A stretch of 63,010 nucleotides of DNA, the filler included, from Collodictyon triciliatum (Eukaryota), in NCBI GenBank assembly GCA_043381765.1. It is 5 parts of 5 records of this genome, joined end to end, with 100 filler letters (N's around TTAATTAATTAA, not from the genome) between each part and the next. Parts side by side here need not be neighbours in the genome. Positions count along the whole stretch, not along the records: positions 1 to 11,700 come from JBHJMP010000478.1; 4 more parts are not named here. One strand, written 5' to 3'. Made by a program: the position numbers and the translations under genes. The notes beneath the pieces were generated by a model. It was given only the letters and a program-made list of their open reading frames with translations, was not told the origin of the DNA and made no database searches. Position 1 is the first letter of the stretch, and the number at the start of each line of letters is the position of its first letter. Of this stretch, positions 1 through 61,806 are shown one piece after another.

Positions 1-155
1 TTTTCTTTTTCTTTTTTCTTTTTTCTTTTTTCTTTTTTCTTTTTTCTTTTTTCTTTTTTCTTTTTTCTTTTTTCTTTTTTCTTTTTTCTTTTTTCTTTTC
101 TTATGAAATATAGATAAGAAGCTCAATTTGTCACCTCATATTTTAACAAATGCAG

Positions 156-3100
156 GGTGACCTGGGAAACATATCTAGTTGTTTGATGTTCTCTGATGAT
201 CAAATTGTCGACCTTGCCCTCCAAACAATTAGACATCTGAACATAAAGGAGAATTTTAGGATGCCGCTTTTTCATTCGGGATGTGTGCCGTGAGTTTCAA
301 TAATGTTTTCCCGAGTTAGCCGAATAATTTAATATTGCTTTTGTCGTTTGTCAACTTACCAGAAGAATCACAGGTTCATGTTCTCGCTGATCGAAGATAA
401 TTTGAAGAGAAATGACGAAATCAGATTTATTCTGGCCCTGATGACTGTTCATGAGGAAATTCGGCATTTCATCTACACCGAAGGAAGAATAAGGGTAAAG
501 TGAAAGATATATGTTCATATCACGTGATGAAAAGAAGTGTTCCAGACATGAAAGTAGCAATTTATCAAAGCCATTTCGCTTGAGCTAATTTAACATGTCC
601 TACATTGAAACATATATTTAGATTTTACAATTCTTGGGCATCTACCCGGACATCATCATTCAGAGATGGGTTTCTTCTTGCATCGGACATCTAAGCCTGG
701 AAAGCGATGAGATGAGAAAGGAAGTTGTCGATACAAACTGCTTAGAATATTTATTCGACTATCTGAAGGGAACAGCCGACACAAAGTATAATTTACCGCT
801 CTATGGATTTAAATATGTATAATCACGTAAATACAACAAACATCTACACATTTTTTTATTCCATTCATCCATCGTTTCTTACTCAAAGCATCCCTTTTTA
901 TTTTTCAGTCTTGTATACTGCTGTGTATGGTCTATATTTACTATCGCACAAGATGAGACATACCGCGCCATTATTGTTGGCAAGGGAGCTTTGGATGTTT
1001 TGTATAGCCACACCATTGTTGATGACCCCTCCATCGTACGACTCTTTTTACTCAAATAAAATTACAATTTCCAGCAAATATACCTGTACTTTTTTCTTCA
1101 GACTGTTAATAAACACAAACTTAATTGTTTATCTAATAATATGTATTTCTAGCTGCAAATAATCGCTGGTTGCCTGGGATATTTTTCTGTTGTCCCGGAG
1201 TTAGTAGACTGTCTGTTGAGTTCAAATATCAGTGTACCGGCATTCATGCGCTTATGTGACGCACCCGATCCTCAGACACAATTCCAAATGATTATAGTGC
1301 GTAATATTTTACGGCAGTTGTCTTGAAAGTCATACACCCTCCTGAAATATATGTTCTTCCAGATGTTTATTCTTCACGGTTTCTCTAATTCAATATTTTG
1401 ATGCTCTTGAATAATCCTGTGTCATTTTAGAATATTCTTCTATCGTAAAAATTAAAAATAGTCCAATAAGGTATTGCTTATGGTAGATTTTGATATATTT
1501 CTTTTCTGTTTTTTCCCAGATTCTCTTTAACATATGTCATTCAAATTTCAATCGCCCTGTGGTTGCTGCATCGGATTTACTGTCATTCGTTACAAGCTTT
1601 CTGTCAACATTTGTGTCAGATACATTTACACTGCATTCCCTTCTTGTAAAGTTATACATCATATTCAAAAATACGCATGCAATTTCATCTCGTGCATTCA
1701 TATTCACATGCACATAGCAAAAAGGTATGTGGTCAGGAGATGTTTATTCAACTGTGTTCTGTTTATACTAGATTTTCAAGAACCTCTGCCTTTGGAGGCC
1801 AAACCATCAGATTTTAGTCGAAGCTGGAGCTCTTGAACTAGTGTCTCCGTTTATCTTCTCTGAAGACCCTGCATTGCGGAAAGAGGCAGAAGAATGCGCT
1901 TGCGTTCTGGCTGAGTCTGTTTCAACAAGGGAGGCTGTCGAAGATCAAGTGAGTATAGTTTCGCATATGCGGAAGGCTTGTACGTGTATACCTTGGTGAG
2001 AATGTCGTCCATTCACGGAACAATTTTGAGTGGGCACGGCCTGTAGCTGATTGGTTGATTAATTTTATGTAATTAGCATGATATTCAAAAAAAAGTATAT
2101 TTTTTCACTATACGAAACGAACCGTAAAATTGTAGGTATGCATAGAATTTCTTATTGCAATAGTACGCTCATTGAATGTCAATGTGGAAACGATGAGATG
2201 GACTCTGGCAATCCTGTATGAGTTCTGCGATATGGACGAAGAACTCCTCACACACATCGCTGAGTTCTGCTTACCTTTGATTCTCCATCTCCCGGTACAT
2301 TATGCCATCGAGCAGTACCACGGAAGGGTATTTGAATGGGGGAAGCCGTATGGCGCCTCATCATCGTCACACAAGTCTTCCGAAAAAAACCCGCCGAAAT
2401 CTATCGGGCTTCTGAAGCCATCTGAATCCTTCATGAACATCAGCGAACTCAGCCCCAACCATTTGAATGAGTATATGATCCAAGATATTATGATTGATGT
2501 TACAAGGATCTTGAGCTGTACCTATGAATTCGAAGCAGCACAGGTATGGGCTATGTTATTGGTGGAGATAGAACTTTAGTACATCACTTTTAATTCTTGT
2601 ATCGACTATAATGCCAGTGATTCAGAAATAAACCTGATTTAACTCTGTCATTTTATATTTAGATTCTTTATGCCGAAGAAAAATCGCTTGCTGCCATCAA
2701 ACTGCTTGTGCAATTTCCAAACAACACTATTCAATATAACTGCATCGTGCTCTTCAAGATGCTTTCATCACAAGATCGTTTCAAAAGGTATACTATTCAA
2801 CCTCACATGTCTCTTCCTTCTTTCCTTTCTTTTTCTTTGTCTTTTTCTTTTTCTTTTTCTTTTTCTTTTTTCTTTTTTCTTTTTTCTTTTTTCTTTTTTC
2901 TTTTTTCTTTTTTCTTTTTCTTTTTTCTTTTTTCTTTTTTTTCTTTTTCTTTTTCTTTTTCTTTTTCTTTTTTCTTTTTCTTTTTTCTTTTTCTTTTTCT
3001 TTTTTCTTTTTCTTTTTTCTTTTTCTTTTTTCTTTTTCTTTTNNNNNNNNNNNNNNNNNNNNNNNNNNNNNNNNNNNNNNNNNNNNNNNNNNNNNNNNNN

Positions 3101-6100
3101 NNNNNNNNNNNNNNNNNNNNNNNNNNNNNNNNNNNNNNNNNNTTCTTTTTTCTTTTTCTTTTTCTTTTTCTTTTTCTTTTTCTTTTTCTTTTTCTTTTTC
3201 TTTTTCTTTTTCTTTTTTAGAATGTTTCTCCGGACTGGATTAATTTCGTTTTGCGATGATAGACATTTGTTCTTCAGTGCGTTATTTTTAATTATCGAAG
3301 GGCTAGCTTCTCTCAATACATGTACAAGCTCCTTTTTTTTTTCCCATTATTTTTCGTTTTGATTTTGTTTGCAACAAAAATTTCTAATAATTTTTTTTTT
3401 CTTGACCTCAACCCGAAAAGGATTCTGTATGAGAATATCCCTCTCGATTTAGTTTGTGGTCTTTGCGAGTCCAAATATATCGAAGTCAAATATGAGGCTG
3501 CTTTGTTTTTGTGTTCCATGCTTCAGGAAGAATACGTAAAGCAAGAGTGTGTTTCAAGAAACCTCATCCCAGCATTCATCGCACCATTGAATACGGGCAC
3601 AGATTCGCTTTACGAATGGACCATAATGAATCTAAATCAATACTCAAAAAGAGGAATGAAGGAGAAAGTCCAAATCGCCTCAGAAAATGTATGTCTTTCT
3701 AGTACTTAATGAGTTTATATTAAATTTGTTAAAAAAAAGTTTTAAAATCCAAACTCCATAGCCTATTTCATGCTGCCTTTTCCTCACCACCTCCATATAT
3801 TTTTTGAAGATATCTTCTTTTTTTCGATCGATCTTTTTTGCGTATTCTTTTCCGTGACAGTTGTGATTTTTGAATAGGCGATGGACCAACTCATTCAATT
3901 GTTGAGCAAGCCTCTCGGCACACCTCTTCTTTGTCGCGTTATATATCTCCTTGGGACTCTCTTCCAGAGCGCTGATGTTGTCAACATGGAAAGATGCGAG
4001 CAGGTTATACTTTTTTCTCCATCTCCTATCATCCCCTTGTTCATCTTAACGCTTGCATGCCTTTTGTCATAATCTTTATGTGTCATCTCAAAGTCTCAAT
4101 GAATCATTTCAGGCCATTGTCCCTCTGATTAAGTATGTTGGCTCTGAGGATGTCGGAATAATGTGTGAAGCTCTTCGCACCCTTGGAATTATGTGTCATT
4201 CCCAAACACATCAACAGAAGGTTTGCCGTGGGAATTATGCTTATATGACAACACCAAATGTTTTTTAGGCTGCTCTTATATCGGCTATTTCAAATGCCGA
4301 ATCAAACTCTTCTCTTTGGCTGTCTTCCTTACCATTATTCCTTCAGATCGTTGATTTAGGAGGGGTTGTCCTCTTTGTTCATCTTCTGAGGTCAGATATC
4401 CCACAGGCTCGATTAGAAGCACTCATGGCACTCCAAGTTTTAGCGCAAGAAAACACTAGTGTGGATATTATATACCAAGAGAAAGGCAACATTGATGCAT
4501 GTTCAATAGCACATTTTTACTACATCCAGGTAAAATGTATTTTCATATTCTTTCCACTATTATATTTGAGTGTCTTGCAATCGATAGATTAAGCATTAAA
4601 AAAAGAAGTTATTTGTGGTATAATATCCTCGAGACTGAATGCCCTCAACTACTTGCAATCACAAATCGAAAACGGCTTTATTTTTTGCTCTTAGGATAAG
4701 GATTTGTTGGAAAAGATACAAGAAGAAGCGAAGAAACTACTGCAATTGTTGGATGAGGGTGAATTATCCACTTGGGGCTGCGGAGAGTATGGACAGCTCG
4801 GTCATGGAACAAACTACAACGAATTTTTGCCCCGGCATCATCCGGTAACTGCATCTTTGAAATTTTTATTTTTTGTATTTTTGTCATATATATTTAATAA
4901 TTATTTGTTACAAATTTTGAATACACACTCCTTTAACTAATTATTTTTAACCTTTTATTAATAAAAATAAAAATGATAATTTACAACTGTATCAAGTCAT
5001 CGAGAGATTTTAAAGTACGAGTTAACAAAGTGGCATGTGGGAAGTCCCATATGATTGCACGCACCGAGGATGGCAAGTTATATTCATGGGGTGAGAACAA
5101 GCATGGCCAGCTGGGAATGAGGGATACAAAAAGCAGAAGCATTCCGACAGTAGTAGATTTTTTTGTAGATTTGTGAGTATCTTAGTCTCTTATCTTCGAA
5201 TTTTGAATTCCATCTTTTATATTTTATATTCGTTATTTTTTTATTTTTTTTTAAAAAAAAAAAGATAGAGGAAACTAAAAAATTATGCTACACAGCGATA
5301 TCATCGATATTGCGTGCGGAAGTGAGTTCAGCATGGCTTACGTTAAGGGTGCTGATGACATGTAACACTTTGTACTTTTTCTCCACGAGTCTGGGAATTA
5401 CTACTATTTTCAAAAGCGAGTGAACTTGGTCAGAAATTATTTTAATTTACACAATGTTTCTGATGTACTATTACAGAAATAGGCTTTACTCTTGGGGTTC
5501 AAATGATTTCGGCCAATTAGGCATCGGCAACACTGATAGCAAAAGCCAGCCTGTTGAAATAGAATTGCTCAGAAACCAAGATATCATCAATATAGCTTGC
5601 GGTGTGCGGCATGCTGCCTGTGTCACTGGTGATATTATATACCTTTTTATATTTTTATATGAGAATAAAGTGCAACCTTACCTTTCCTGATTATTACTGT
5701 GAACATTATTCTGAAACTTTAGTCTTGTGTGTAGTTCAAGGAAGTTTGTACATTTGGGGAGACAACGAACAACATCAGCTTGGGGTTGCACAGTCAAGAG
5801 CATCGAGTGTGCCTATTTTGATGGAATTTTTCCAGGAAGCAGGTGCCTACAAAACATGCAATCTTGTTATGTTTATTAGTATTTTTGAAATGCCTTTTTT
5901 TCAAATTCTAATATTTTATCGAGTCCATTTTGCTTCTCTTCTTTTTTCGATTCAAATTTTTGGTTGTTGTCTTTAAAATAAAAATAAAATTGACATTGCT
6001 TCAAAACTCTTTCAGTTTCCAGGGTCTCTTGTGGTGTCACACATTCAGCAGCGCTTTCTGGAGGTAAAGTTTACACGTGGGGAACTGGAGATTCTGGACA

Positions 6101-9100
6101 GCTGGGATTAGGAGAAGGACAGACTGTCTCTGAAACACCTCAGCCAGTCGACATCCTTTCTTCCGTCAATCAGAGGTTTTTTTTGAATATGTCTCTAAAA
6201 TGAAATCTTTCTATGGCACGCTCGCTGCGAAGGGAAAAAAAAAAAAAAGACAAAAGCTACTTTAAATCCAAAATCACTTTTCAGTGACATCGCTACTTGG
6301 AGGGAAGATTCGACGCACGACCCAGCAGCACCTACCACGGCGAAGATAATTCGTTGTAGTCAAACTATGACTATGGTTGTATCATATTCTGGGCGCTTAT
6401 ACACTTGCGGCGATAATTCTGCTGGTCAGCTGGGGTTGGAAGACAAAGTCGACAAATCGTTTGTTTTGAAGGTCATCTTGCTACTTAAGATAAAAAATCA
6501 GATGAATTTACAAACAGATAGTTAATATCAATAATTAAGGTAGGGGAAAAAACTAAAATTCAATCTTAAAATCGTGTACGCAGGAGGTAACACTACTTTC
6601 GAATGAGCTTTTGTTGGATGTAAGCTGCGGTAGTTCGTTTGCAGTTGCCCTTACTATTGAAGGTCGTGTATTTTCTTGGGGAAGTTGTGAAGATTTTCAA
6701 CTTGGATTGGGTGACCCGTATACCAAAAACACTCCTAATGGTAAGATAAGACTCTATTCTGTATTTTATGGCTTGGAGAACTTATTCATCTCACGTTTTC
6801 AATTAATTGCCCAAATAACAACCGGTTCATTCCGGTGATATTCACTTTTTTTTTTTTTTTTGGTTCCTCTCTTTTTGTTTTCTCATCAAGAAATATCTTA
6901 CCTGCGCGGAGTTCCCATTCGCATACTGGTTGCAGGCTACAACTTTGTCGCATCGATAGGTTAGTTTAACCTTCTTATTTTTGAGTAAGCAGAGTAAGGA
7001 GTCAGGGAGCAGAATAGTTAGTTTGAATAACATACTGCAGTATTAAATTGGTTTTGAGTGCGCTGTATTCGGTTGATTCAAACGAGCGATGAAAAGTCAT
7101 TTTATTGCGAAGTGCAGTGTAAGACTTTACTTTATACACTTAGCACCAAAAGCGGATTACAAGCACCTCATAAGCGAATTTATTATCGCTACGGAATCAG
7201 ACCACCAACCGCCCCTAAATGCTGCAGTCGAAAAATACCTAACAGTTCTTCGAAATGAAGCATTGATAGGTTGTTTTCCATAAGCAATAATTCTTTATTT
7301 ATCACCATCACACTTGCCGGAGCATCCAAGACATCATAATTGCAGCTGATGTTTTAGCTTCAGTGAATTATTTTTTTAAAAAAAATCTTGAAACATATAC
7401 AGGAGACCCCATTCTTGGTCGTGACCAGATTAACAGTGTCTTTTCCTGCATCGATGACATACAACAGCTCGCAAATGGCTCTCCAAAAGAGGATATCAGA
7501 GTAAAACATCCTTTTTATTCTAAAAGATTCTATTTAAAATTTCGAATAAAATCTATTAAAAATATCAAAACTGATCCCACAAATATGTAAAATAATCCTA
7601 CTATGTCACAGAGCATCGGAGATATCGTTGTGCGCTACACTGTAGATGAACTTTTTAATCTACTATTCAACATATCATCTACATTTGGTGAATATATAGA
7701 CAACTTTGAAGACGGCATAATGATGCTTCACTCAAGGTGTTAAATCCAAGATAAATTTCGGAAATCTTTTTGTTTGGAAAATTGTGATTGCCGCTAGGAA
7801 AAATAAAAGGAAAAAAAAAAAGAGCCAAAAGTAGAAACGTTTTTCTTACACTTTAATTTTAAAACTCAGATACGATGGTAACGTCAGATTCCGAACTTTT
7901 GTCGATGCGCGAGGGACGAAAGCAGGTAGGACATATCTCGCCTCGTTTTCTTGTTTGTGCGGGTTGAAGTACTTTCTCAAAAAAAATATGCGGTTCTCTA
8001 GATTAAATTACATCAACATCTAATATTCAACTATTTTAGAGCTAGAAAAGCTGCTCATAGACCCGGTCTTCCGTTTTTACTCTTATCATCGATTCTACAT
8101 GGTAACTTATTTCATTAGTAGAGAACGAGTTTGCTGAAGTCTGCCTTTTACAACCTACTGTTTCAAAGTTCCAAAGCTATTTTCTCTATCTCCATCACAT
8201 TACATATTGTAGGAGGTGAAGAAAGAGCTTCATGAACAGTTAGTCATCGATTCCAAGCAGGACGAAAAAAATCAGGATGACCAACCAACAGGTTAGACTT
8301 GACACCCTCTCACATTCATTTGATTTTATATGTATTGAAAAAAAAACATGTATTCTGCCCAATTTGGTCGACATCAGCCTTAATTTTTTGTTTTACTTGA
8401 TTTATATAACATCTGCATTATCAATAGTTTGGTTTTGTAATATTCTAAAATATGTGAATCGATAGTCAATGATTTAGAAGAATCATTCAATTCTACAATC
8501 CCAATCATGCAAAGAATCCGACCATCAAAAGTAAAACTCAAGAAGGAATCTTCTTTCATGAAAAATATCCTAGAGGTATACCTCAATATTTAAAAAACAC
8601 ACACACACAAAACGGAAAATCATTTTTTAATCCATATTTTCCATTTTTTTCTATTTTTATAATATTTTTTCTGCATTTCGCATCACCATTTTTTTTTCAT
8701 GTTCACAGCTGGATAGAATTAATGTGTGTAACAGCTTTTCCTTTTATCTTATTGACCAGGATTGAAATACTCGTTATTCATATTTTTCACTTTAAAAGGG
8801 AAAAAGTAATTTGTCCGAGGCCACAATCGATGTTATATTCCTTACTATGATATTCGTGATTTATATTACTGTGGTCAGAGCCATGCGCTTTAGAAAAGAT
8901 ATGAAAAAGGTACATCGATGAGATTTTGCTTCCTCGTTTCAGTTGACCATTCATTGCTTACTTCTTTTGTAGATATATGTTTTGTATTTGAAAAGAGTCA
9001 TTGTCGATAAAATGAACGACACATTTCTAAGAATATAATCATCATAAAAAAAATCTCGAAAAGGTCGATAAAAGCGACAAAATTGCTGTTCGAAATGTCA

Positions 9101-11383
9101 TATGGAATCACTTTCGGGTAATTGCTTCTAATGTGGCTGATATGTTCGGTAAGCTAACTTTCATGAACATTTGCGTTCTTAATACGAAAATGGACTCATT
9201 TGCATTCATATTTATTTTGTTCCTGCGAGGCATGAATACATATGGTTACATCTTTTAAATGTAAAATGTAGGCAAAAAGGCGTATACAAATGACTTCTCT
9301 CCTCTGACTGCATATTCAGTTGCATCTTACAACATGTTCTGTCCCTTTTTGCTTGTCCTCATTGGACTTATGTAAGTTTGGTCAGCTCGTTGCCCCTTCC
9401 TCTCCGAAAGTCTGTCGTGTATCACGTCAATCTTCTGAACGGAAGAGATACTGACATTCTTGTTCTATTTGTACAGAGCAACCGCAACAAGCTCGGCTCA
9501 ATATGTGATGCCCTTCTTTCTAGTGAGAACAATAGTTTTCTTATTATCAAATACATGAATATACTGGCGATCTTTTTATTTACTCCAGGCATTGATTGGA
9601 ATTGCAAGATAGGAAGATAGCTTTGATATTGGCTTTTATTTTGGTCGACCACACATTTGAAACAACCTTTTTCTCTTTATTTTCGCCCAGGGTGTATACT
9701 TCTTTTGTGGGTCAGTAATGATTGCATGGGCAATAAAACGAGCGTCAAAGGACAAGGCCGTGATGTGGGTTGACAGGACAAAGAAGCACATCGGACGAAA
9801 CCAAGAAAACGCGCTGGAGCTCTTCTCTTTGGTCTCTGATTATGTCCAGGTAGCCATCATTTTTCCTCGCCGTGCGATCTTTTGTAACGTTTTCTCTGTA
9901 TTAAAAAGATGTAAGAAGCCAAATTTCATTTATATATGTATATGATTGGCTAATCATTACAATAATGGTTTATTGACAAATGAAAACATTTAGCTCGTCA
10001 CCCTGTCATTTAATGATAGCGTTCCATGGAATGCAAATCCATTCACAACGCAAGCTACATCTTTGGGTGGAGGACTTCGGCTAAGTATTCATTCATTTCT
10101 GTGAATATTTATATACGCTCTTGAATATATATAACTATTTTGTAGTATAACATAGCCTTTTCATATATTTTTATCTTCATACACTCGCAACGTATGTTTC
10201 ATAATTTATGTATCAGTTCTCTTAACCGAATCTGATCTCCCTGCAACGATCTTTGTATTCTTTTCTTTAATTAAACCATTTGCACTACTTTTATTTCACA
10301 GAAACAATCTCTGTGGCGACTGGCTTTACCCTGACTTTTTTTGGAATCATGAGCGTCATTGCACTCTGGGTGTTTACACTAAAGATTAGTGAATTCAACA
10401 TAAAAAGTAAAAAAGCTGACGCGTTCAAGAACACAGTTCTTCCGATTCTAGGTAAACTAGGCCATGTAATATCGAATTTCCCTTTCTTTTTTTTAAGCTG
10501 CTTTTTCCTACTGCCCAAAATAATATATGGATTAAATATGCAATCTTTTGATTTACGTCAGAAACTCTGTTTTTTTTTTAACTTATTCAATTTGCATAGG
10601 CGACACCTTCTATATGTCCGTAGCAAGCACACTATTTCAGACGTTCGACTGTGCTGTTGTGGATGGTGATTATGTGGTATGAGTTCACTTTGATTCGCCC
10701 CAACTGAAATTCCGGTCTACCATCCATTCTCTTAAACCTAGCACCACAGCATACCCAAACTATTATCTTTTTCAGCATGGAAGATAAAAAAAAATGCAAA
10801 GGCACAATATTTCAATTTAAAAGAAACGGACATTGTAATTCGATCTATATTTCGTAAAGTCCAAGGTTCAACTTCTTTATTAGTATGTAAGGTGTAAACC
10901 TCGAGTAAATCCATCTACTCATCACACTGCAGTTGCGAGTTGATCCAAACTTTCACTGTTGGCAAGGGTCGCACGCAGCCATGGCTCTTGCCTGTCTCCT
11001 TGGAGTCGGATTATACATTCCTCAGGCAACTCTCACGCCGTTCTCTGCCTTTGATGCTCCGCCCGAACTCGACATCCTTTATGCGCCACTATTCACCATA
11101 TTTTCGCAATATGTCAAAGTGATAATCACAGGATTTTCCATCTACTTTGGTACAGTTTAATTTTAATGTTCATAATCATTTTCCGAATCGTGACTGATAT
11201 CTGAACCAATGTATAACCCAGCCGGCATACCCAGCCTCTTTTTGGTGTGCAACCTGATTGGCAACGTGGCGTTGTTGTGGTTCATCTTGAAATTCAGTCC
11301 TTGTGCCCCGCACGCCATCAGCCATTGGAACGCGGCAATCTTCTTTCAATCAGCAGCTTCGACCGTCTGTGCCATACTTGCAA
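156..11383 (+). CDS. Large multi-exon protein: ARM repeats + RCC1 repeats + DH/RhoGEF-like domain + polytopic membrane domain (5' end outside window; last exon(s) obscured by gap at 11701-11800)
   Basis: Phase-compatible GT-AG exons. ARM-like helices lie at 156-4760 (e.g. IVDLGGVVLFVHLLRS..ARLEALMALQVLA). RCC1 repeats lie at 4760-6958 (WGCGEYGQLGHG, VACGKSHMIARTEDGKLYSWGENKHGQLG, IACGVRHAACVT, WGSCEDFQLGLG). A DH-like domain lies at 7144-8290 (HLISEFIIATESDHQ..KYLTVLR..QINSVFSCIDDIQQL..LEKLLIDPVFRFYSY). Hydrophobic helices lie at 8809-11383 with FDC..LRVDPNFHCWQGSH. Confidence 0.85.
2820..3215. repeat. (TTTTTC)n-type intronic microsatellite spanning an N gap
   Basis: Direct reading. Confidence 0.9.
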
Positions 11384-11600
11384 GTATGTTTACTTTCACC
11401 TATTTCCTTTTTTATTTTTATTTTCTCTTTCTCGATTGCGACTCCCTCACTCGCCCCGACTTCAGTGAAAACAAAAGATTTAGAAAAAAAAATCCAAAAT
11501 TCTTATTTATTCTTTGCTATTAATTATTTTGAATGTCGGATGCTCGTACGATATGAGAAGAATGAACACATTTATGACGGGCGTTTACTTTTTCTTTTAT

Positions 11601-11700
11601 TGATTTTGATTTTGATTTTGATTTTGATTTTGATTTTGATTTTGATTTTGATTTTGATTTTGATTTTGATTTTGATTTTGATTTTGATTTTGATTTTGAT
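11601..11700. repeat. (GATTTT)n microsatellite
   Basis: Direct reading. Confidence 0.95.
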
Positions 11701-11800
11701 NNNNNNNNNNNNNNNNNNNNNNNNNNNNNNNNNNNNNNNNNNNNTTAATTAATTAANNNNNNNNNNNNNNNNNNNNNNNNNNNNNNNNNNNNNNNNNNNN
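11701..11800. other. Artificial assembly linker (N44-TTAATTAATTAA-N44)
   Basis: Palindromic 12-mer with stops in all six frames, centred in a 100-nt N block. Identical construct at four sites. Confidence 0.95.
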
Positions 11801-12089
11801 TTTTTTTTTTTCACCCCGAGTCGAACAGAAAGACGGTGGTCTGCGAGTCGGATCGTTGGGGGTTCTCTCTGATGTGTTTTATGCGATCATTCTTTGGTGA
11901 TCACCACCATCACTCAAATGGAGTGACATTTACCCGGAAAGCAAACCGCACAAAATGGGCACAAATACTATCAAACAGAGAAACTGTGAGATTTAGCATT
12001 CGCTGCATAGTCAATTACTTCATTAGCCCGCAGTGAAAGGATTGGTTTTGTACGGATCGCATCTCGAGTTGGATGAAAATAAAAGGGAG

Positions 12090-12164
12090 AAAAGAAAAGA
12101 AAAGAAAAGAAAAGAAAAGAAAAGAAAAGAAAAGAAAAGAAAAGAAAAGAAAAGAAAAGAAAAG
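12090..12164. repeat. (AAAAG)n microsatellite
   Basis: Direct reading. Confidence 0.95.
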
Positions 12165-12338
12165 AGGAAAGGTAAGAGAGCCAAACATAATTCGGTGCAT
12201 AATATGTGTGTTTTATTTGCGTGCTGTTGGCTTGATTTCTAGAATATGGTCGGCATTATCACTTTTCTTTCATGTTTGTATGAGAGTGAGATAACCTAGT
12301 ATACTTGTTTTTGCATCCCTGATAACTATGTGATGATA

Positions 12339-14835
12339 TCATTGCCATTGCTCATACCCATCGGCGCTGTAGTATCTCCCTCGGCGGCGGCGGCTTCTCT
12401 TGTTCAATACGTAATAATTCAGCCCCACAGAAATCATGACCACCGAGACAATACCTGCCGCAGATGCCACGATAATTGTAATTTTGTTTATCTTGTCGTT
12501 CTTGTTTGACTTGTCTTCTTTCTTTGAGTCTGAACACCCACTGCCGAGACTCACTGGTGAATTTTCGTTTTTGGTCATGCTTAGGACATGTAAATCCCTC
12601 ATGACCAGTGCTTCGCAGCAAACATCGTTGACAAATTGGTCTCCAATCTCATCACCTGAATTGGTGTTGCTGCTCAGTATTTGAATGGAGATTGGGATGC
12701 TATTTGACTCAGTCTTTGTCGTCTGAGAAATCTCCAGTTGCCAATCAGTCAAGTTGTAGGTTTTTGAAAGGGTGTCGATGAACACATTCTCGTCTACGTC
12801 TCCATACTTTTTATCGATGAAAAAAGTTACACACGTGTAAACACGAGAATCTGCAAGAAATCTTGGTTACAACGACATTACACAAAATATGTAAACTGTA
12901 GAAAAAGATATGCGGTGTCCTTTATACTAAAGTAATTGCTTGGTATCAAATAATAAACAAATATTGTCGTTACATCTTAGCATCTAATCAAGCTGCTTTT
13001 AAAAAATGTGTTGCATAAACTCATGAGATAAAGAGAACAAACCGTAAAAATAAACGGAGCCGGTCACATCACCAGAAATCATATCCATCGGGGCACCTAC
13101 GGCGACTAGCTGCGAATTAATCAAGACGCTTTTTGCAAACCCGTCATAGATCGATGCAGCTGATTCTGAATTCAGCTGCTTTACTAGCATCCATGTGTCA
13201 TCTATCTTATTGAAAACATACGCCGACCCACTTACACCATTGGCTTCGTTCCCAATATCCCCGACTATCATGGAACTGCCATATACGGAAACAGAAGACC
13301 CGAAGTTTTGTGGTCTCTTGGGGTTATTTATCCCGCTTTCGAGCAAAGGATATAAAACCTCGCTAAAGTTCCAATCCTCAAGCCCTCCTTCATAAGGCTT
13401 TCCATATTCAAAAATATAAACTGCTCCTACTGGTTCAATTGGCCCTCCACTTATCACAGACTTTGGTGTCCCGATGGCAATAATGTTGATGTGTAAACAT
13501 ATGTAGGTGCCAAACATATCTTGCTTTGCTCCGTAAGGATGAAATATGAATGCCTCACGTCGCCACATTTGTCTTTCGTTTGGTCGGTATATGTAAACAG
13601 CGCCTTCTTCTCCACTATTTCTGAATAAGCTGATAGCTAATCTATCCATATACATGGAAATAGATATTCCTAGATTAATTGCTGTGGTTGAAACCCCGTC
13701 GTCAATGTATGACTTGTAAGACCATATTGCTCTCCCATCGACATGTGTGCGATAAAAAAGCTCTACCCGACCTTTGTTAGAATTAATCCATGGCCCGCTG
13801 ATAGACATCCAATCACCTTGTGCGGCAATCCCCCATCCAAAATAGTCACCTTCTGTTATGTTAAGAGACCCGCGAGTTATGACAGAATTAAATTCAAACG
13901 AGTCCTGAGGTTTTATGTCAAATATGTATACCGCTCCTCTATTTCGATTGCTTCCTGGTGCACCAATAAGAAGAAGCTCTTCATTAATGTAAACACTGAA
14001 ACCAAATAGCGAACTGCTTGTCTCTCCATACTCTCTTCCTTCAATTCTTTGAATCCAATACCAATCCCCGTTAAAGGCTCCTAAAGAACTCTTTCTTTTG
14101 TGTATGTCAACGAATCCTCCGATATCACTTTCATTCACCCCGACTTTACCTTGTGCTCCACATATGAAGTATTGTGAATTTGCCCCAATGCCTCTTGAAT
14201 CACCCAGATAGTTGACGGGTTCACTTCGGTTTGCGTACTTGAATGCTTTGAGGAAAAGAAACCGTTCGTATATGTATAGTTTTAAAAAAATCGGTCGTTT
14301 AATTACACATAACAGAGTGAAAAAAAAAACCATGATACTGCTACATTCAAAACTTGGGCACCAATTAATCCGCAAGGCTTTCTTTTTTTCTTTTTTTTCT
14401 TTTTTTTCTTTTTTTCTTTTTTTCTTTTTTTCTTTTTTTCTTTTTTTCTTTTTTTCTTTTTTTCTTTTTTTCTTTTTNNNNNNNNNNNNNNNNNNNNNNN
14501 NNNNNNNNNNNNNNNNNNNNNNNNNNNNNNNNNNNNNNNNNNNNNNNNNNNNNNNNNNNNNNNNNNNNNNNNNNNNNTTTCTTTTTTTCTTTTTTTCTTT
14601 TTTTCTTTTTTTCTTTTTTTCTTTTTTTCTTTTTTTCTTTTTTTCTTTTTTTCTTTTTTTCTTTTTATGTTGAAAAAGGGAGAAGAAACTTACAGTACTC
14701 GATCCGCGCATAGTCTGTTCTGTCCATCACCGGAAGGCAATTGATCGATCTAGGCAGACACAAGGCGACCACAAGGAGCACAAGAGAGCCGCCCAAAGGG
14801 GTACGCCAGACTATATGCCACGACTTGATTGCCAT
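12339..14835 (-). CDS. FG-GAP repeat (integrin-alpha-like beta-propeller) type I membrane protein
   Basis: Three visible exons (~14835-14694, ~14250-13041, 12850-12339). Signal peptide MAIKSW..SLVLLVVALCLP. Repeats FGFSVYI..LLIGAPG..GAVYIF, FGSSVSV..VGDIG..GSAYVF and VAVGAP..GSVYFY. TM helix ITIIVASAAGIVSVVMISVGLNYYVL followed by a basic tail. Confidence 0.85.
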
Positions 14836-17570: not shown

Positions 17571-18057
17571 CACAAATAAATAATTGAATAAATAAACCCC
17601 TGGATTTCTACTCTGGATGCCCACTCAACAAGCTACAATCAAATGAATCAAATTTTAGCATCACTAATTATGACGCAAAGTCTGAAGTTTCACTGCCTGT
17701 AGTGCGAGCAGTGATAAGATTATACTCGACCATAATGCATCTCTGTAGGCTTTCCCCTCTGTAAATCGTAATCCCCGGCCCCGACCTGGACCTCGCAATC
17801 CTAGCCAATTTTCTTGTCTGTGCTGCAAAAGAACCACCAACAACCCCCAGAACCAAAGTATTTTGGAAATTATTTTTCCAGAAATAAAGAATTTCATTGA
17901 AATGTTAGTCCTTAATTTTTTTTCCTTCAATTGGAGCCCCAGCGCTTGGCGATTGTTTTTCCCTTTTAGCCACAACCTCTCTTTCCTCGCATCCTATCGT
18001 GTCTATCGGCGCCAGCTTGCACAGAAGCACTAATCGACCAGAACTTCGAGTATCACC

Positions 18058-18980
18058 ATGAGGTAAGGCCAATCCAGTCATATCAACTGTGTGCCGCATC
18101 CACGCCCCAACGGGTTTCATGCCTGACACTGAACATCCCACCCACCAAAATGCAGCAAGATCTCTTCCGAATCCCTCCGCAACAGCATCAAGACTCTCAT
18201 TGAAGAGTCCAAGACCGCCAAGCGCCCCTTCGTCGAGACCATTGAGCTCCAAATCGGCCTCAAGAACTACGACACCCAGAAGGACAAGCGTTTCTCCGGA
18301 CAGGTAGGAGCCGACACATTCGGACCATTGCTTGAGTGTGTCGCAGCAACATTTACCAACAAGACCACTGATCGGCTGTCTCCCTCCTTAAGGTCCGCCT
18401 TCCGTACACCCCTCGCCCCCGCCTCTCCGTCTGCGTCCTCGGAGATGCTGCCCACAACGACGAGGCCACCAAGCAGGGAATCCCCAACATGAGCGTCGAT
18501 GACCTTAAGAAGCTCAACAAGAACAAGAAGCTCATCAAGAAGCTCGGTTAGTGCCCCTTACAGCTCGTCCCACTCCACTCCGTGCTCAAGCACAACCTTC
18601 TCTGGCAGAGCGCTGACCTCCCACGTCCCCACTTAGCCGCCAAGTACGATGCCTTCCTGGCCTCTGATGCCGTCCTTAAGCAAATTCCCCGTGTTCTGGG
18701 CCCCGGTCTCAACAAGGCTGGTAAGTTCCCTGCCCTCCTCGGAGCCAGCGACAACATGCAGGACAAGATCAACGAAGTCCGCTCCACTGTCAAGCTGCAG
18801 CTTAAGAAGGTGCTCTGCATGGGTGTTGCTGTTGGAAACGTCAACCTCTCTGAGCAGGAAGTCTTCACCAACGTCCAGATGACTGTCAACTTCTTGGTCT
18901 CCCTCCTCAAGAAGAACTGGCAAAACATCCGCTCCCTCCACATCAAGTCCACCCAGGGCCGTCCCTTCCGCATCTACTAA
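18058..18980 (+). CDS. RPL10A: 60S ribosomal protein L10a (uL1)
   Basis: Four exons: [105 protein letters not shown]. Strong C-ending codon bias. Confidence 0.98.
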
Positions 18981-19768
18981 GAGGTGTTGCTGTAGCCCTT
19001 GTGTAGAGTCCTGCTGGTCTTTGCAGAGGATGGTGTCGCTTCTCTTCAGTTACTCTTAAAAGAAAAGATACCCTCTTCCATGACTACAACTTTTAAGACA
19101 TTTCATTGTAATCCTGTAATTTGCTTGTATTCCATATATCCCTGATTTTGATAGAGAGGAGTAATTTACTGTCGTATGAAATTCAAGCGCAAAGATAATA
19201 CCATCACACACGATAACTGAGAAACTGAAATGGAAACAGTGGCACCAAGGCTTCCCTCGAGCATCTGCACTTGCCACCCACTCTCACACGCCCAGAAGCT
19301 CAATCTTGGGTCCCAGAGTCAGGGAGCGAGTTGTCGGTGTCGCCGAGGCGAAGTCATTTGGGAGCTTGTCAGAGACAGTAAAATCCTTTCGCGTCATTAT
19401 CTCGTCTCCCTCCTCTTCTCTCTGCAACCTGTACCTTTGCTCAACTCCCTACCACGACCTTCCAGCCCCGGCAAGAGGTCTCATGTGCTATACACTGTCT
19501 CAGCAACTCACGCCAACTGTAGCTCATTGTCACGCTTCACATATATTTTCACGAGTCTCACTGAATGTAGACCAGTTGCCAGTGTTCCGCCTCGTATCGA
19601 CACATATATCACCTGCCTAGCCTGGATTCGCGTTTGGTATTTATGGCTAAATATGCGACTAAGCGTGGGGAAGGACGTATTGTGAAAGTGACGGGAGGAA
19701 CCATCGCCCTTACAAATAATGTCGAAAAGGGATAAGGGAATATAGAGTTGGCGAGAAAGGCGCGGAGC

Positions 19769-21504
19769 TTAGCCAGTCTTTGACCAGACCTTGCCGTAGG
19801 GTGAATACTCTTGCTGCTTGGGCAGTGAGTGAGCCTGATTCGAAGAAGGGGGAAGAAAAAAAAGTTTAGGAGGTTGCTGATGCATCAAGGGTATTTGTTC
19901 CCTTGTGAATGCTTGGTGTGGATCAAGCTGATGAGAGTATGTCTTACGTGTTGGAGATATGCAGCATTGGATTTGAGAGCAGGTAGAATCCGCCTGGTTG
20001 CATCCATCAAAGAGGGTTAGGGTGGCGCAAGTTATCAAGAATACTCTCAAACTTCCCAAAAGCACAGAGCACGATGTGCAAGTGAGTAATGCTGGGTATG
20101 TGCGTATTTGTCGTCAATGAAATGGCAATTGCAGTGGGATACATCCGTACCTTCTTGCGTTGATAAACCAGTTATTTATCTGACCGAGAGACAAGGAGGT
20201 CTGGTCCATGAGGCCCTGCTTCTCTTCGTCGGTCGGGTAAGGATAGGTCAAGTGGCCTCCAAGCCAGTTTTTGAGGACATAGGTCGCGCCCTTTGGTAGA
20301 TTTCCACGGCGCTTTTTCCCTGCAACGGAGGACCGACGAACAGCAGTGTCAGCAGGAAATCCGATGAAAGAAAAAAAAAAGAATAAAGATGTGTCCTTCG
20401 CAGTTTAGGCAGTTGCAGAAGGGAAATTATTATGGGGAAATGGAAAGAGGGGAGGATGGTCTCACCAGAGTTGGGATTGTATTCACCAACTTCGTCTTCA
20501 CTGTCTGAAAGAATTTCGCCCTGGTTGGATGGGATAATCTTGACCGGGTCGTGCATGCTTGCTCTGGGCTTTCCAAACTCTGCGGTTGAACAGAGCCAGT
20601 CACTTCCCAATGGAATTACGTGCGGCAGTATACACAACGCGGTGTAATTTGGTGGCCACAGATGAAGCAAATATACACATATGGAAAAAATGAAATGAAG
20701 GAGAAGAAAGGCGTATATGGACACAAGGAATCCATAGACGGCTGGCAACGCGAGACTCCGTACAAACCTGTGACTATGGAGCAGTACTTGACAGGAGCAG
20801 GCTCATGCTTCCAGGCCTTGGGCAGCTCAGCATCGATGTCGACAGCCCTGGAGGAGTAGAGGACGAGGGAGCAACCCGATCAGGCATGAGTGCGCACCAA
20901 CCCCATAAGGCATGAATGCGCAAAAGGAGGGGTGAAAGGGTGTCTGTGTGTCGGGTGTCGCACCTGCGCTTGGCGGGGAGGAGCGGGAGCGGGAGCGGGT
21001 CGGTGAGGAGGAGTTGGGGTCTGTGGAGGAGGGTGCCGTCGGGGGCGGCGTTTGCGGAGCCGAGGGAGGAGCTGCGGGAGGGGATCAGCGGGGCGTCGGG
21101 GTCGGCGGCGAGGGGGTGCGGCTGGGGGCGGGGGGCGCTGCGGGAGGGAGCGGTGAGAGGAGAGGAGAGAAGACAAGAGAAGAGAAGACAAGAGAAGACA
21201 AGAGAAGAGAAGAGAAGAGAAGAGCAAAGGAGACGCACAGGGCCGTCGAGGGCGGGCGCGGCGCAGGCAGCCTCGGGCGGGCCATGGGATCCGGCTCCAG
21301 CGTGGCAACGGGCGGCCTCGGGCGGGGCGGGGCGGCGGTCGCAGAGGGCTTCGGCACTGGCAGGGGCGGAGGAGCCCACGTAGCGGCGGACAGCGAGTCC
21401 AGCAGGGCCCGCAGGGGCGGAAGCACGGGCTGGCTCTGCGCGTGGCTCCCCGGCTGTGGCTGTCCTTCGCTTGCGACAGAGTCCGACGACGTCGACGACG
21501 ACAT
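19769..21504 (-). CDS. TALE-class homeodomain transcription factor (TGIF/Cup9-like) with Pro/Ser-rich N-terminus
   Basis: Exon ~20320-20151 encodes KKRRGNLPKGATYVLKNWLGGHLTYPYPTDEEKQGLMDQTSLSLGQINNWFINAR. The next exon continues RRILP. PYP loop extension present. The probable last exon ends GKVWSKTG* at 19769. Confidence 0.92.
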
Positions 21505-21611
21505 GTCTGTCTGTTTTCCTTCTCTTTCGGGGAGGGGCGGTTTGCGTTGGCCTTGCTTGTGTTTGAGCGAATTTTGGTTGGCCTTAGAGCGAAGCGAGTT
21601 GTTTGGTTTTC

Positions 21612-21715
21612 TTTTGTTTTGGTTTGGTTTGGTTTGTTTGGTTTGGTTTGTTTTGTTTTGTTTTGTTTTGTTTTGTTTTGTTTTGTTTTGTTTTGTTTTG
21701 TTTTGTTTTGTTTTG

Positions 21716-21745
<30 letters not shown>
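21612..21745. repeat. (TTTGG)n/(TTTTG)n microsatellite upstream of homeobox ATG
   Basis: Direct reading. Confidence 0.9.
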
Positions 21746-21746
<1 letters not shown>

Positions 21747-61733: not shown

Positions 61734-61806
61734 GGGGGTGTAGCTCAGATGGTAGAGCGCTCGCTTAGCATGCGAGAGGTAACGGGATCGATGCCCGTCA
61801 CCTCCA
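61734..61806 (+). tRNA. tRNA-Ala (AGC)
   Basis: 73-nt cloverleaf. Acceptor stem GGGGGTG/CACCTCC-A with G3:U70. Anticodon arm CTCGC-TTAGCAT-GCGAG. T arm ACGGG-ATCGATG-CCCGT. A T-run Pol III terminator follows just downstream. Confidence 0.97.

What the first reader, a model, noticed from the sequence alone, without database searches (positions are those of the whole stretch)
156..11383. ARM-RCC1-RhoGEF(DH) module fused directly to a ~10-TM membrane domain
Seen: the exons splice in frame across every domain junction. One exon (4695-4844) encodes both the end of the ARM region and the first RCC1 repeat. The RCC1 to DH (6958/7144) and DH to TM (8576/8809) junctions are phase-compatible, with no stop or intergenic space. 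No PH domain follows the DH. Known: RCC1+DH occurs in alsin-type and amoebozoan GEFs, and FxC..L..D....CW...H is typical of a widespread protist polytopic membrane family (e.g. Dictyostelium TmcB-like proteins). Inference: this could be a one-component membrane receptor or channel wired to Rho/Rac activation. I do not recognise this architecture from any described protein.
Basis: partly seen in the sequence, partly recalled or inferred. Interest (0 to 1): 0.8.

Follow-up and report, generated by a model that had tools for sequence, protein, structure and literature searches.

The report
Multi-pass membrane protein carrying a RhoGEF
One intron-rich protist gene joins helical repeats, a seven-bladed RCC1 propeller and a Rho-activating (DH) domain directly to a many-pass membrane domain of an unnamed protist family, so a Rho switch may be wired straight to a membrane sensor or channel.

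Summary
Spliced contigs from two public runs of one study carry GT..AG joints, and they bridge the ARM/RCC1, RCC1/DH and DH/TM junctions in frame. My 38-exon model reads 1697 residues without a stop.

- The RCC1/DH junction is 6959/7144.
- The DH/TM junction is 8575/8799, not 8576/8809.
- 11383 is an exon end, not the gene end. At least one 3' exon is missing from the window.

RCC1 is solid: seven repeats, Pfam E 1e-8 to 1e-17. The DH could not be scanned as a spliced protein with Pfam. A local profile built from 10 Pfam-verified RhoGEF domains scores it 26.8 bits, E 2.8e-7. The best of 1000 shuffles scores 5.4 bits. ARM is only weakly supported.

The TM domain belongs to a real protist family with no Pfam model and no PDB fold match. 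Other members fuse it to EF-hands, an ANF receptor domain, an Arm repeat, or, in Platysulcus tardus, a homologous DH-like region.

So this is a membrane-integral, PH-less RhoGEF. Catalysis, topology and any receptor or channel role are inferred. The "TmcB-like" label was not tested.

The parts
150..4003 (+). 5' helical-repeat (ARM-like) exons. This is a model only: 150-206, 260-304, 622-785, 909-1035, 1153-1300, 1818-1979, 2164-2543, 2663-2787, 3301-3688, 3878-4003. The start codon and the stretch across the N gap 3043-3142 are uncertain.
   Evidence: Exon chain from my dynamic programming on codon and splice scores. It is in frame with the RNA-supported part. Pfam Arm E 0.0014 on 1153-1299. 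No contig cover was available here.
4113..4529 (+). Last ARM-like exons, 4113-4220 and 4347-4529.
   Evidence: X1 record 1 covers 4345-4527, with 54 nt more upstream and 328 nt downstream. Pfam Arm E 0.028 on 4347-4529.
4695..6959 (+). RCC1-like seven-bladed propeller. Exons 4695-4844, 4997-5172, 5296-5361, 5477-5628, 5735 (or 5723)-5842, 6016-6175, 6285-6471, 6584-6740, 6891-6959.
   Evidence: Pfam RCC1 on 5 of 5 ORF pieces, E 7.2e-9 to 4.1e-17. Seven W/C-G-x-x-x-x-G/Q-Q-L-G motifs in the model. Joints 5172|5296, 5361|5477, 6175|6285 and 6471|6584 in X1 and X2.
7144..8291 (+). Dbl-homology (RhoGEF) domain exons 7144-7269, 7403-7500, 7612-7736, 7870-7925, 8040-8101, 8213-8291. The profile match spans 7182-8230.
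   Evidence: Local HMM of 10 Pfam-verified RhoGEF domains: 26.8 bits, E 2.8e-7, aa 1093-1241 matching profile positions 5-148 of 173. The best of 1000 shuffles scored 5.4 bits. Pfam RhoGEF was the only family hit on 7405-7734 read through its in-frame intron (E 0.017). Exon boundaries fit the contig lengths and 'from_end' values.
8102..8212 (+). In-frame 111-nt intron with two stops (TGA at 8135, TAG at 8210). It is retained in the X1 contig and apparently spliced out in X2.
   Evidence: X1 record 4 lies unbroken on 8038-8289 with 5 differences, all inside this intron. The X2 loose end at 8212 carries the last letters of exon 8040-8101.
8466..8575 (+). Basic linker exon between the DH domain and the first membrane helix.
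   Evidence: Joints 8291|8466 and 8575|8799 in X1 and X2.
8799..11383 (+). Polytopic membrane domain. Exons 8799-8909, 9064-9148, 9272-9371, 9477-9522, 9691-9849, 9994-10084, 10302-10451, 10600-10676, 10933-11149, 11222-11383. It has about 9-10 hydrophobic helices, and the conserved C...C-W-x-G-x-H loop lies at 10650-10970.
   Evidence: All 10 introns appear as GT..AG joints in X1 and X2, with one open frame. Library search with exon 10933-11148: 18 hits, best E 2e-10. Local phmmer of the TM part against the family: E 4e-25 to 1e-6.
11384..11800 (+). GTATGT donor after 11383, then intron sequence and the N runs 11701-11744 and 11757-11800. The last exon or exons are not in the window.
   Evidence: The contigs of X1 and X2 run on for 255 or more letters after 11383. 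Their first 30 letters are absent from the window. Read in frame, they give the family's last conserved helix motif (compare).

Best explanation
This is a single protein-coding gene of a GT-AG-intron eukaryote. It has at least 38 exons, a median intron of 133 nt, and encodes more than 1700 aa.

From N to C the product has:
- about 670 aa of ARM-like helical repeats,
- a seven-bladed RCC1-like propeller,
- a Dbl-homology RhoGEF domain with no PH domain,
- a short basic linker,
- a polytopic membrane domain of about 10-11 helices.

Most likely mechanism: the membrane domain replaces the missing PH domain. It holds the DH domain permanently at a membrane, where prenylated Rho/Rac-type GTPases sit. 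The ARM and RCC1 modules act as protein-binding or autoinhibitory platforms. A conformational change in the membrane domain, caused by a ligand, ion or lipid, could gate the GEF.

Shown: the gene structure, the splicing across the junctions, the identity of the RCC1 and DH domains, and membership of the TM domain in a conserved protist family that is fused elsewhere to sensory or regulatory domains.

Inferred: GEF activity, a cytosolic position of the DH, and any gating by the TM domain.
For: Splicing and continuity:
- All 15 of 15 listed joints are GT..AG and appear in contigs of two runs. Single contigs bridge DH to TM: X1 record 4, and X2 record 10 from about 8090 to 11383 and beyond.
- The length of X1 record 3 (978 nt) and the 'from_end' values place it from RCC1 (6013) to DH exon 7612-7684. 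This fits my exon sum to within 1 nt. It is an inference.
- The frame is open over 1697 aa.

Coding constraint:
- Of 25 differences between window and contigs, 15 are intronic and 10 exonic. Of the exonic ones, 7 are synonymous and 3 are not.

Domains:
- RCC1: Pfam E 7.2e-9 to 4.1e-17.
- DH: local profile of 10 PF00621-verified seeds gives 26.8 bits, E 2.8e-7 among 1020 targets, over profile positions 5-148 of 173. The best shuffle scored 5.4 bits.
- DH: Pfam RhoGEF was the sole hit on exons 22-23, E 0.017.
- TM family.

Fusion partners in relatives:
- DH-like region in P0015 of Platysulcus: Pfam RhoGEF E 0.0037; my profile 15.7 bits; Smith-Waterman 75 against shuffles of 37.2 +/- 4.4, with 0 of 500 reaching it.
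- EF-hand pair in P0013/P0020.
- C-terminal Arm repeat in P0018.
- ANF_receptor domain, E 5.9e-25, in Blepharisma P0019.
Against: - The DH match is modest. The Pfam partial hit (15.7 bits) is below the gathering score of 27.6.
- Segment 7871-8290, read through its introns, gave no Pfam hit.
- The CR3 motif reads P-V-F-R-F where my seeds have P-V-Q-R-I, so catalysis is not assured.
- Topology is unresolved. K/R-rich loops follow the first helix and helices 'a' and 'b'. Taken at face value together with the extracellular ANF domain of P0019, this would put the N-terminal domains on the non-cytosolic side, unless an odd number of the three elements before helix 'a' span the membrane.
- One contig (X1) retains the stop-containing intron 8102-8212, which would end translation inside the DH.
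- The two runs come from one study and are only guessed to be RNA.
- The 5' third of the model has no transcript support.
Confidence: 0.6

Rival explanations
1. The membrane domain is the working part, either a channel, a transporter or a receptor with its own output. In this reading the ARM-RCC1-DH arm is a regulatory or scaffolding tail. It would bind a small GTPase or cytoskeletal partner to control or position the membrane protein, so information flows from the GTPase to the membrane.
For: The same TM family carries other regulatory domains on its cytosolic-type ends: EF-hands, and an Arm repeat after the last helix. The most conserved part of the protein across the family is the TM core. 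The CR3 Gln is replaced.
Against: No channel, transporter or GPCR fold was recognised. Foldseek against the PDB found nothing at E below 0.2, with TM-scores of 0.1-0.2. A sequence profile against the PDB found nothing at E up to 10. DH domains are exchange factors in every characterised case that I know of (recalled).
Confidence: 0.2
2. The DH-like region is a degenerate, non-catalytic helical domain, a pseudo-GEF. The protein would then be a membrane scaffold built from ARM, RCC1 and helical modules.
For: The profile scores are low (26.8 bits locally, 15.7 bits for the Pfam partial hit). CR3 reads P-V-F-R-F. The Platysulcus homologue matches only profile positions 5-114 to 118. There is no PH domain.
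Against: The match covers nearly the whole domain in colinear order, including the CR1 T-E and a recognisable CR3 helix. The one difference listed in exon 7403-7500 is synonymous, and the one in exon 7612-7736 is a conservative I to M change. PH-less and Gln-less DH domains with activity exist (recalled, not checked here).
Confidence: 0.2
3. The fusion is an artefact. In this reading two neighbouring genes, a soluble ARM-RCC1-DH gene and a TM gene, were joined by read-through transcription or by chimeric contig assembly.
For: The runs are low-depth contig sets from one study. X2's contig starts near 8090 behind an adapter-like sequence, and another adapter-like end lies at 10407 in X1. Intron 8102-8212 is retained in X1.
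Against: Two separate contigs in two runs cross 8291|8466 and 8575|8799 with canonical GT..AG and keep one frame. There is no stop and no intergenic space. An unrelated complete transcriptome ORF (P0015) has the same order, DH-like region then TM.
Confidence: 0.03

Closest known systems
Dbl-family RhoGEFs (Pfam PF00621), canonical DH-PH tandem
   Same: It has an all-helical DH domain with the CR1 T-E and a CR3 helix. The match to a profile of verified RhoGEF domains is colinear.
   Different: No PH domain follows, because there is no room. Instead the DH is covalently joined, through about 60 residues, to a polytopic membrane domain. The CR3 Gln is replaced by Phe.
Alsin (ALS2)-type GEFs: RCC1-like domain, then DH-PH, MORN and VPS9 (architecture recalled)
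   Same: An RCC1-like propeller lies directly N-terminal to a DH domain. There are weak exon-level Pfam Alsin_RLD hits (E 9.1e-7, 28.9 bits, cut-off 100).
   Different: No PH, MORN or VPS9 was found. It has an ARM-like N-terminus and a membrane domain. The Alsin_RLD score is far below the family cut-off.
Unnamed protist TM family: P0015 Platysulcus tardus, P0024 Telonema subtile, P0011 Fabomonas tropica, P0010 Astrephomene gubernaculifera, P0019 Blepharisma stoltei, plus metagenome proteins
   Same: The TM core is the same, with invariant C, H, A-T and P positions (C...C-W-x-G-x-H, P-x-A-T-L-T-P-F, L-D-I-x-Y-x-P). Local phmmer E values run from 4e-25 to 1e-6. P0015 also has the homologous DH-like region upstream.
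   Different: None of the 15 members scanned has RCC1. The partners differ: EF-hand, ANF receptor, Arm repeat, or none recognised.
Oomycete GPCR-bigrams (PMC6033456, passages read)
   Same: The concept is the same: a multi-pass membrane domain fused in one polypeptide to a catalytic signalling domain, which suggests a signalling shortcut.
   Different: In bigrams the order is an N-terminal 7TM GPCR followed by a C-terminal enzyme, and no GEF is among the listed partners. Here the enzyme is N-terminal, and the TM domain has about 10-11 helices with no GPCR fold match.
Dictyostelium TmcB family
   Same: TmcB is described as acting in cAMP signalling during sexual development (PMC8516963 and PMC12750705, passages read).
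   Different: Membership was not tested. No TmcB sequence appeared among the hits and none could be fetched.

Membership tests
Dbl-homology RhoGEF (PF00621) | Significant, colinear match to a DH profile over most of the domain | tested here: met
   Local HMM of 10 seeds, each verified as PF00621 (E 4.7e-12 to 5.2e-42). Spliced model: 26.8 bits, E 2.8e-7 in 1020 targets, aa 1093-1241 on profile positions 5-148 of 173. Best of 1000 shuffles: 5.4 bits.
Dbl-homology RhoGEF (PF00621) | Score at or above Pfam's own gathering threshold (27.6 bits) | tested here: inconclusive
   The spliced protein could not be submitted. Single exons gave no hit. Exons 22-23 read through an in-frame intron gave 15.7 bits, E 0.017, as the only family listed. 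Exons 24-26 read through gave no hit.
Dbl-homology RhoGEF (PF00621) | Conserved CR1 Thr-Glu and CR3 Gln-Arg helix (roles of these residues recalled) | tested here: inconclusive
   T-E is present. CR3 reads P-V-F-R-F against P-V-Q-R-I in the seeds.
Dbl-homology RhoGEF (PF00621) | Nucleotide-exchange activity on a Rho-family GTPase | not testable with these tools
   This needs a biochemical assay.
Canonical DH-PH tandem | A PH domain directly C-terminal to the DH | tested here: not met
   About 60 residues separate the end of the DH match (aa 1241) from the first hydrophobic helix (aa 1306). The linker exons gave no Pfam hit.
RCC1-like propeller (PF00415) | Seven RCC1 repeats | tested here: met
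   Pfam RCC1 on 5 of 5 pieces, E 7.2e-9 to 4.1e-17. Seven repeat motifs are present in the model.
Armadillo repeat (PF00514) | Repeats scoring above the Pfam cut-off (20.6 bits) | tested here: inconclusive
   Two sub-threshold hits: 19.0 bits, E 0.0014 (1153-1299) and 14.9 bits, E 0.028 (4347-4529). The other 11 different N-terminal pieces scanned gave none.
Alsin type (RLD-DH-PH-MORN-VPS9) | PH, MORN and VPS9 domains after the DH, and Alsin_RLD at or above 100 bits | tested here: not met
   Alsin_RLD scored 28.9 bits at best. What follows the DH is a TM domain.
Unnamed protist TM family | Alignment over the whole core, with the invariant C, H, A-T and P positions | tested here: met
   Library search: 18 hits. 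Of these, 14 were confirmed by local blastp at E 3.4e-11 or better and 4 were dropped as spurious. phmmer of the TM part: E 4e-25 to 1e-6. Invariant columns.
Fungal-type TRP / Flc-Pkd2-like (PF06011) | Match to PF06011 | tested here: not met
   None of the 15 family proteins matched PF06011. The E cut-offs were 1 for 12 of them and 0.1 for 3. Window TM exons: none at E up to 10. The only link is an Atlas lead: the nearest named clusters carry PF06011 on 18% and 25% of members, with scores of 0.81 and 0.87.
Dictyostelium TmcB family | Sequence or profile similarity to TmcB | not tested
GPCR-bigram | N-terminal 7TM GPCR domain followed by a C-terminal catalytic domain | tested here: not met
   The order is reversed and there are more than 7 helices. 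There was no meaningful GPCR fold match; the best GPCR row had E 1.1 and TM-score 0.17-0.22.

The most novel reading that the evidence does not exclude
The unnamed TM family may be a previously unrecognised eukaryotic sensor module, either ligand-binding or ion-conducting. Different protists have plugged it directly into different outputs or inputs: an ANF ligand-binding domain outside the cell, and EF-hands, Arm repeats or a DH domain inside. In that reading, the window's protein and its Platysulcus relative are one-component receptor-RhoGEFs. They would turn an extracellular or membrane signal into Rho/Rac activation with no G protein, kinase or adaptor in between, and the link would be old enough to be shared by distant lineages.
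Probability: 0.2. Interest if true: 0.8.

Novelty: new variant of a known kind. Interest (0 to 1): 0.6.

Why it matters
Dbl-family GEFs are normally soluble. They are brought to membranes by PH domains, lipids or adaptors. A GEF built into a polytopic membrane protein would be the shortest possible path from a membrane event to the actin-regulating Rho switch.

The work also brings out a conserved membrane family with no Pfam model. It occurs in at least a stramenopile, a telonemid, an ancyromonad, a green alga and a ciliate. Its varied fusion partners (ANF receptor domain, EF-hands, Arm repeat, DH) point to a signalling role that nobody has studied.

The DH fusion gives a direct biochemical read-out, Rho-GTP loading, with which that family's function could be tested.

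Tried and rejected
- No RNA holder was listed by the look-up of sequencing runs. The three runs are only guessed to be RNA. I treat their contigs as cDNA because they carry intron-less GT..AG joints and adapter-like ends. That is my inference.
- There is no contig cover on 3300-4121, and X3 covers only a repeat near 5240. I draw no conclusion from either.
- No whole genome is held for this window.
- Exon-by-exon Pfam scans of the DH gave nothing. For the TM exons the only listed matches were to unrelated families, all below their cut-offs.
- phmmer of DH exon 7146-7268 and of P0015 against PDB sequences gave nothing relevant.
- A word-indexed homologue search with TM exon 10933-11148, longer proteins, gave 0 hits. 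With family alignments it gave only 1 hit and 3 hits.
- Metagenome scans for relatives of the TM exon: the first alignment was too loose (error). The second found 61 pattern matches, none confirmed.
- Aligning the six DH exons as separate rows onto the P0015 DH region failed. MAFFT stacked them on top of each other (A5), so I discarded that alignment.
- The AlphaFold2 model of family member P0011 was only moderate (pLDDT 65.5, pTM 0.65). Foldseek against the PDB gave no match at E 0.001 or better; the best was E 0.22 with TM-score 0.11. No fold assignment was made.
- A profile of the TM family against PDB sequences gave 0 matches at E up to 10.
- Library hits P0002, P0005, P0014 and P0016 were dropped as spurious. 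They are multi-stretch, low-complexity matches, and P0002 is a bacterial HYR / Por-tail protein.
- The first dynamic-programming gene models over-split the exons or chose a wrong frame at 4726-4844 and 5005. I corrected them by hand using the RNA piece ends.
- I tried to settle topology with hydropathy and the positive-inside rule and could not.
- Earlier-findings look-ups returned nothing.
- The phrases 'transmembrane RhoGEF', 'membrane-spanning RhoGEF', 'RhoGEF domain fused' and 'transmembrane Rho GEF' occur in 0 papers of the held library.

Full report
**What the region is**

The window is AT-rich (about 35% GC). On the + strand of 150-11383 it is broken into many short open pieces. Their translations read as helical repeats, then RCC1 repeats, then a helical region, then hydrophobic helices. 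No comparable coding signal lies on the - strand. No whole genome is held for the window.

**Transcript evidence**

One sequencing-run search found three runs of one study, stored as Logan contigs. None is on record as RNA. I laid them on 3300-11500.

- X1 and X2 give contigs that skip stretches of 72-256 nt. 15 of 26 joints were listed, and all 15 have GT..AG ends.
- After applying the stated ambiguity, each has GT and AG exactly at the intron ends.
- Some loose ends look like a template-switch adapter. I recognise this from memory, and it fits cDNA.
- The listed joints define exons 8466-8575, 8799-8909, 9064-9148, 9272-9371, 9477-9522, 9691-9849, 9994-10084, 10302-10451, 10600-10676, 10933-11149 and 11222-11383. 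Joined, they give exactly one open frame.
- X1 record 4 (1115 nt) lies on 8038-8289 and continues through these joints. X2 record 10 (1702 nt) runs from about 8090 to 11383 and beyond. So the DH-to-TM junction is crossed by one contig in each of two runs.
- The lengths of X1 records 1 and 3, and the 'from_end' values of the listed differences, fit my exon boundaries at 4347, 4695, 7403, 7612-7736 and 8040 to within 1-2 nt. They imply that record 1 joins the last ARM-like exons to RCC1, and that record 3 joins RCC1 (6013) to DH exon 7612-7684. That is an inference, because those pieces and joints were among the rows not shown.
- Both runs come from one study, so they are not independent.

**Gene model**

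I trained codon and splice scores on the RNA-defined exons and introns. Dynamic programming then chained the remaining exons. I corrected three places by hand: 4347, 4997 and 5735/6016.

The result has 38 exons and 1697 residues, with no stop. The median intron from 4004 onward is 133 nt. Everything upstream of 4113 is model only.

Of the 25 differences between the window and the contigs, 15 lie in introns. These sit in contigs that are unspliced there. The other 10 lie in exons, of which 7 are synonymous and 3 are not. That pattern fits a gene under purifying selection in a close relative.

**The 3' end**

After 11383 comes a GTATGT donor. Both runs' contigs go on for 255 or more letters. The first 30 of these are not in the window, even as 12-mers. 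Read in frame, they give a hydrophobic stretch with G/S-W, matching the family's last conserved helix (L..GW..I). The last exon or exons therefore lie in or beyond the N runs at 11701-11800.

**Domains**

RCC1. Five of five ORF pieces hit Pfam RCC1, E 7.2e-9 to 4.1e-17. The model shows seven repeat motifs.

ARM. There are only two sub-threshold Pfam Arm hits: E 0.0014 on 1153-1299 and E 0.028 on 4347-4529. The other 11 different N-terminal pieces scanned gave none.

DH.
- Single exons gave nothing.
- Exons 7403-7500 and 7612-7736 share a frame across a 111-nt intron. Read through with X at the one stop, they gave Pfam RhoGEF as the only family: E 0.017, 15.7 bits, profile positions 33-102 of 180.
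- Exons 7870-8291 read the same way gave no hit.

To get a proper test, I fetched real DH domains. A degenerate pattern for a recalled 9-residue CR3 motif found 29 metagenome loci. Twenty of them had the exact motif in an ORF. I sent 10 ORF pieces to Pfam and all 10 were RhoGEF, E 4.7e-12 to 5.2e-42.

A local HMM of these 10, with 173 positions, gave these results:
- the spliced model scores 26.8 bits, E 2.8e-7 among 1020 targets;
- one domain of 22.7 bits covers aa 1093-1241, which is profile positions 5-148 and window 7182-8230;
- the best of 1000 shuffles of the same region scores 5.4 bits.

The alignment keeps the CR1 T-E and a CR3 helix, but reads P-V-F-R-F where the seeds have P-V-Q-R-I. 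Only about 60 residues separate the DH match from the first membrane helix, so there is no PH domain.

**The membrane domain**

- Exon 10933-11148 (72 aa) searched against 1.84 billion representatives gave 18 hits, best E 2e-10.
- The spliced model aligns to 14 of them by local blastp, E 1e-20 to 3e-11, over up to 350 residues. The other four are spurious.
- phmmer of the TM part gives E 4e-25 to 1e-6 against 19 family proteins.
- No family member has a Pfam hit on this domain.
- A family profile finds nothing in PDB sequences.
- An AlphaFold2 model of member P0011 (pLDDT 65.5, pTM 0.65) finds no PDB fold at E below 0.2.
- The ESM Atlas twice named PF06011 (TRP) as the nearest Pfam label, but only on 18% and 25% of the cluster members, at scores of 0.81 and 0.87. 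That is a lead, not a finding.

Named sources of members are Platysulcus tardus, Telonema subtile, Fabomonas tropica, Astrephomene gubernaculifera and Blepharisma stoltei.

Fusion partners among the 15 members scanned with Pfam:

| Partner | Member(s) | Note |
|---|---|---|
| EF-hand pair | P0013, P0020 | both from one cluster |
| Arm repeat after the last helix | P0018 | |
| ANF_receptor, E 5.9e-25 | P0019 | |
| Weak RhoGEF, E 0.0037 at 1484-1599 | P0015 | |
| RCC1 | none | |

P0015's DH-like stretch is homologous to the window's:
- phmmer E 2.6e-4 in an 18-sequence set, and reciprocally 3.7e-4;
- Smith-Waterman score 75 against shuffles of 37.2 +/- 4.4, with 0 of 500 reaching it. The best alignment in the whole 2630-aa protein falls on 1477-1600;
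- my DH profile scores it 15.7 bits.

**Topology**

Hydropathy shows one helix (aa 1306-1326), a conserved amphipathic helix, a helical hairpin and then about seven more helices in the window. K/R-rich loops follow the first helix, helix 'a' and helix 'b'. In relatives, the tail after the last helix is strongly basic.

In the Blepharisma protein the presumably extracellular ANF domain sits directly before helix 'a'. For that to agree with a cytosolic DH here, an odd number of the three elements before helix 'a' must cross the membrane. I could not decide this without coordinates or a topology predictor. It is the main open risk for the mechanism.

**Isoform**

X1's contig retains the in-frame intron 8102-8212, which holds two stops. 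X2's loose end shows it spliced. A truncated soluble product is therefore possible alongside the full-length one.

**Literature**

- TmcB is described as a Dictyostelium family acting in cAMP signalling during sexual development (PMC8516963 and PMC12750705, passages read).
- Four phrases for a transmembrane RhoGEF occur in no paper of the held library.
- The nearest concept in print is the oomycete GPCR-bigram, an N-terminal 7TM domain with a C-terminal enzyme and no GEF listed (PMC6033456, passages read).
- A broader term search listed nothing on this architecture (listing only).
- Supplements were closed.

**Verdict**

The fused gene is real. The RCC1 and DH identities are supported. The TM domain is a member of a conserved but undescribed protist family.

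The most likely function is a membrane-integral, PH-less RhoGEF whose membrane domain anchors it and possibly gates it. Activity, sidedness and gating are inferred.

I rate it a new variant of a known kind, with interest 0.6.

Noticed in passing
window 18552-18977 (+), inside the GC-rich stretch 18000-22000: This exon encodes ribosomal protein uL1/L10a (Pfam Ribosomal_L1, E 2.9e-28). The region has 51-54% GC against about 35% elsewhere.
   Followed up: partly
window 13002-14300 (-): A long open frame with FG-GAP repeats (FG-GAP_2, E 7.1e-29). It looks like an integrin-alpha-like neighbour gene on the opposite strand, interrupted by an N run at 14478-14577.
   Followed up: partly
window 61734-61806 (+): One tRNA gene (Rfam RF00005, 59.8 bits). 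It was the only Rfam match in the window.
   Followed up: no
window 1-135, 2800-3250, 11600-11800, 12080-12200 and other places: Long purine/pyrimidine microsatellites (AAAGA/CTTTT-type and GA-type) flank N runs of 100 nt or of 44+44 nt. One such gap probably hides the last exon of the gene studied.
   Followed up: partly
window 5232-5267: All three runs pile up thousands-fold word depth on a T-rich / poly-A-like stretch inside intron 5173-5295. This is a repeat artefact, not expression.
   Followed up: no
P0018 / P0023 (JGI metagenome proteins): These are family members with an Arm repeat after the last membrane helix. Their source labels them 'ABC-type multidrug transport system', a label that no Pfam hit supports.
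   Followed up: partly
P0019 (Blepharisma stoltei, 1175 aa): An ANF_receptor ligand-binding domain (residues 357-695) sits directly in front of the same TM core. This is a receptor-like arrangement that seems undescribed.
   Followed up: partly
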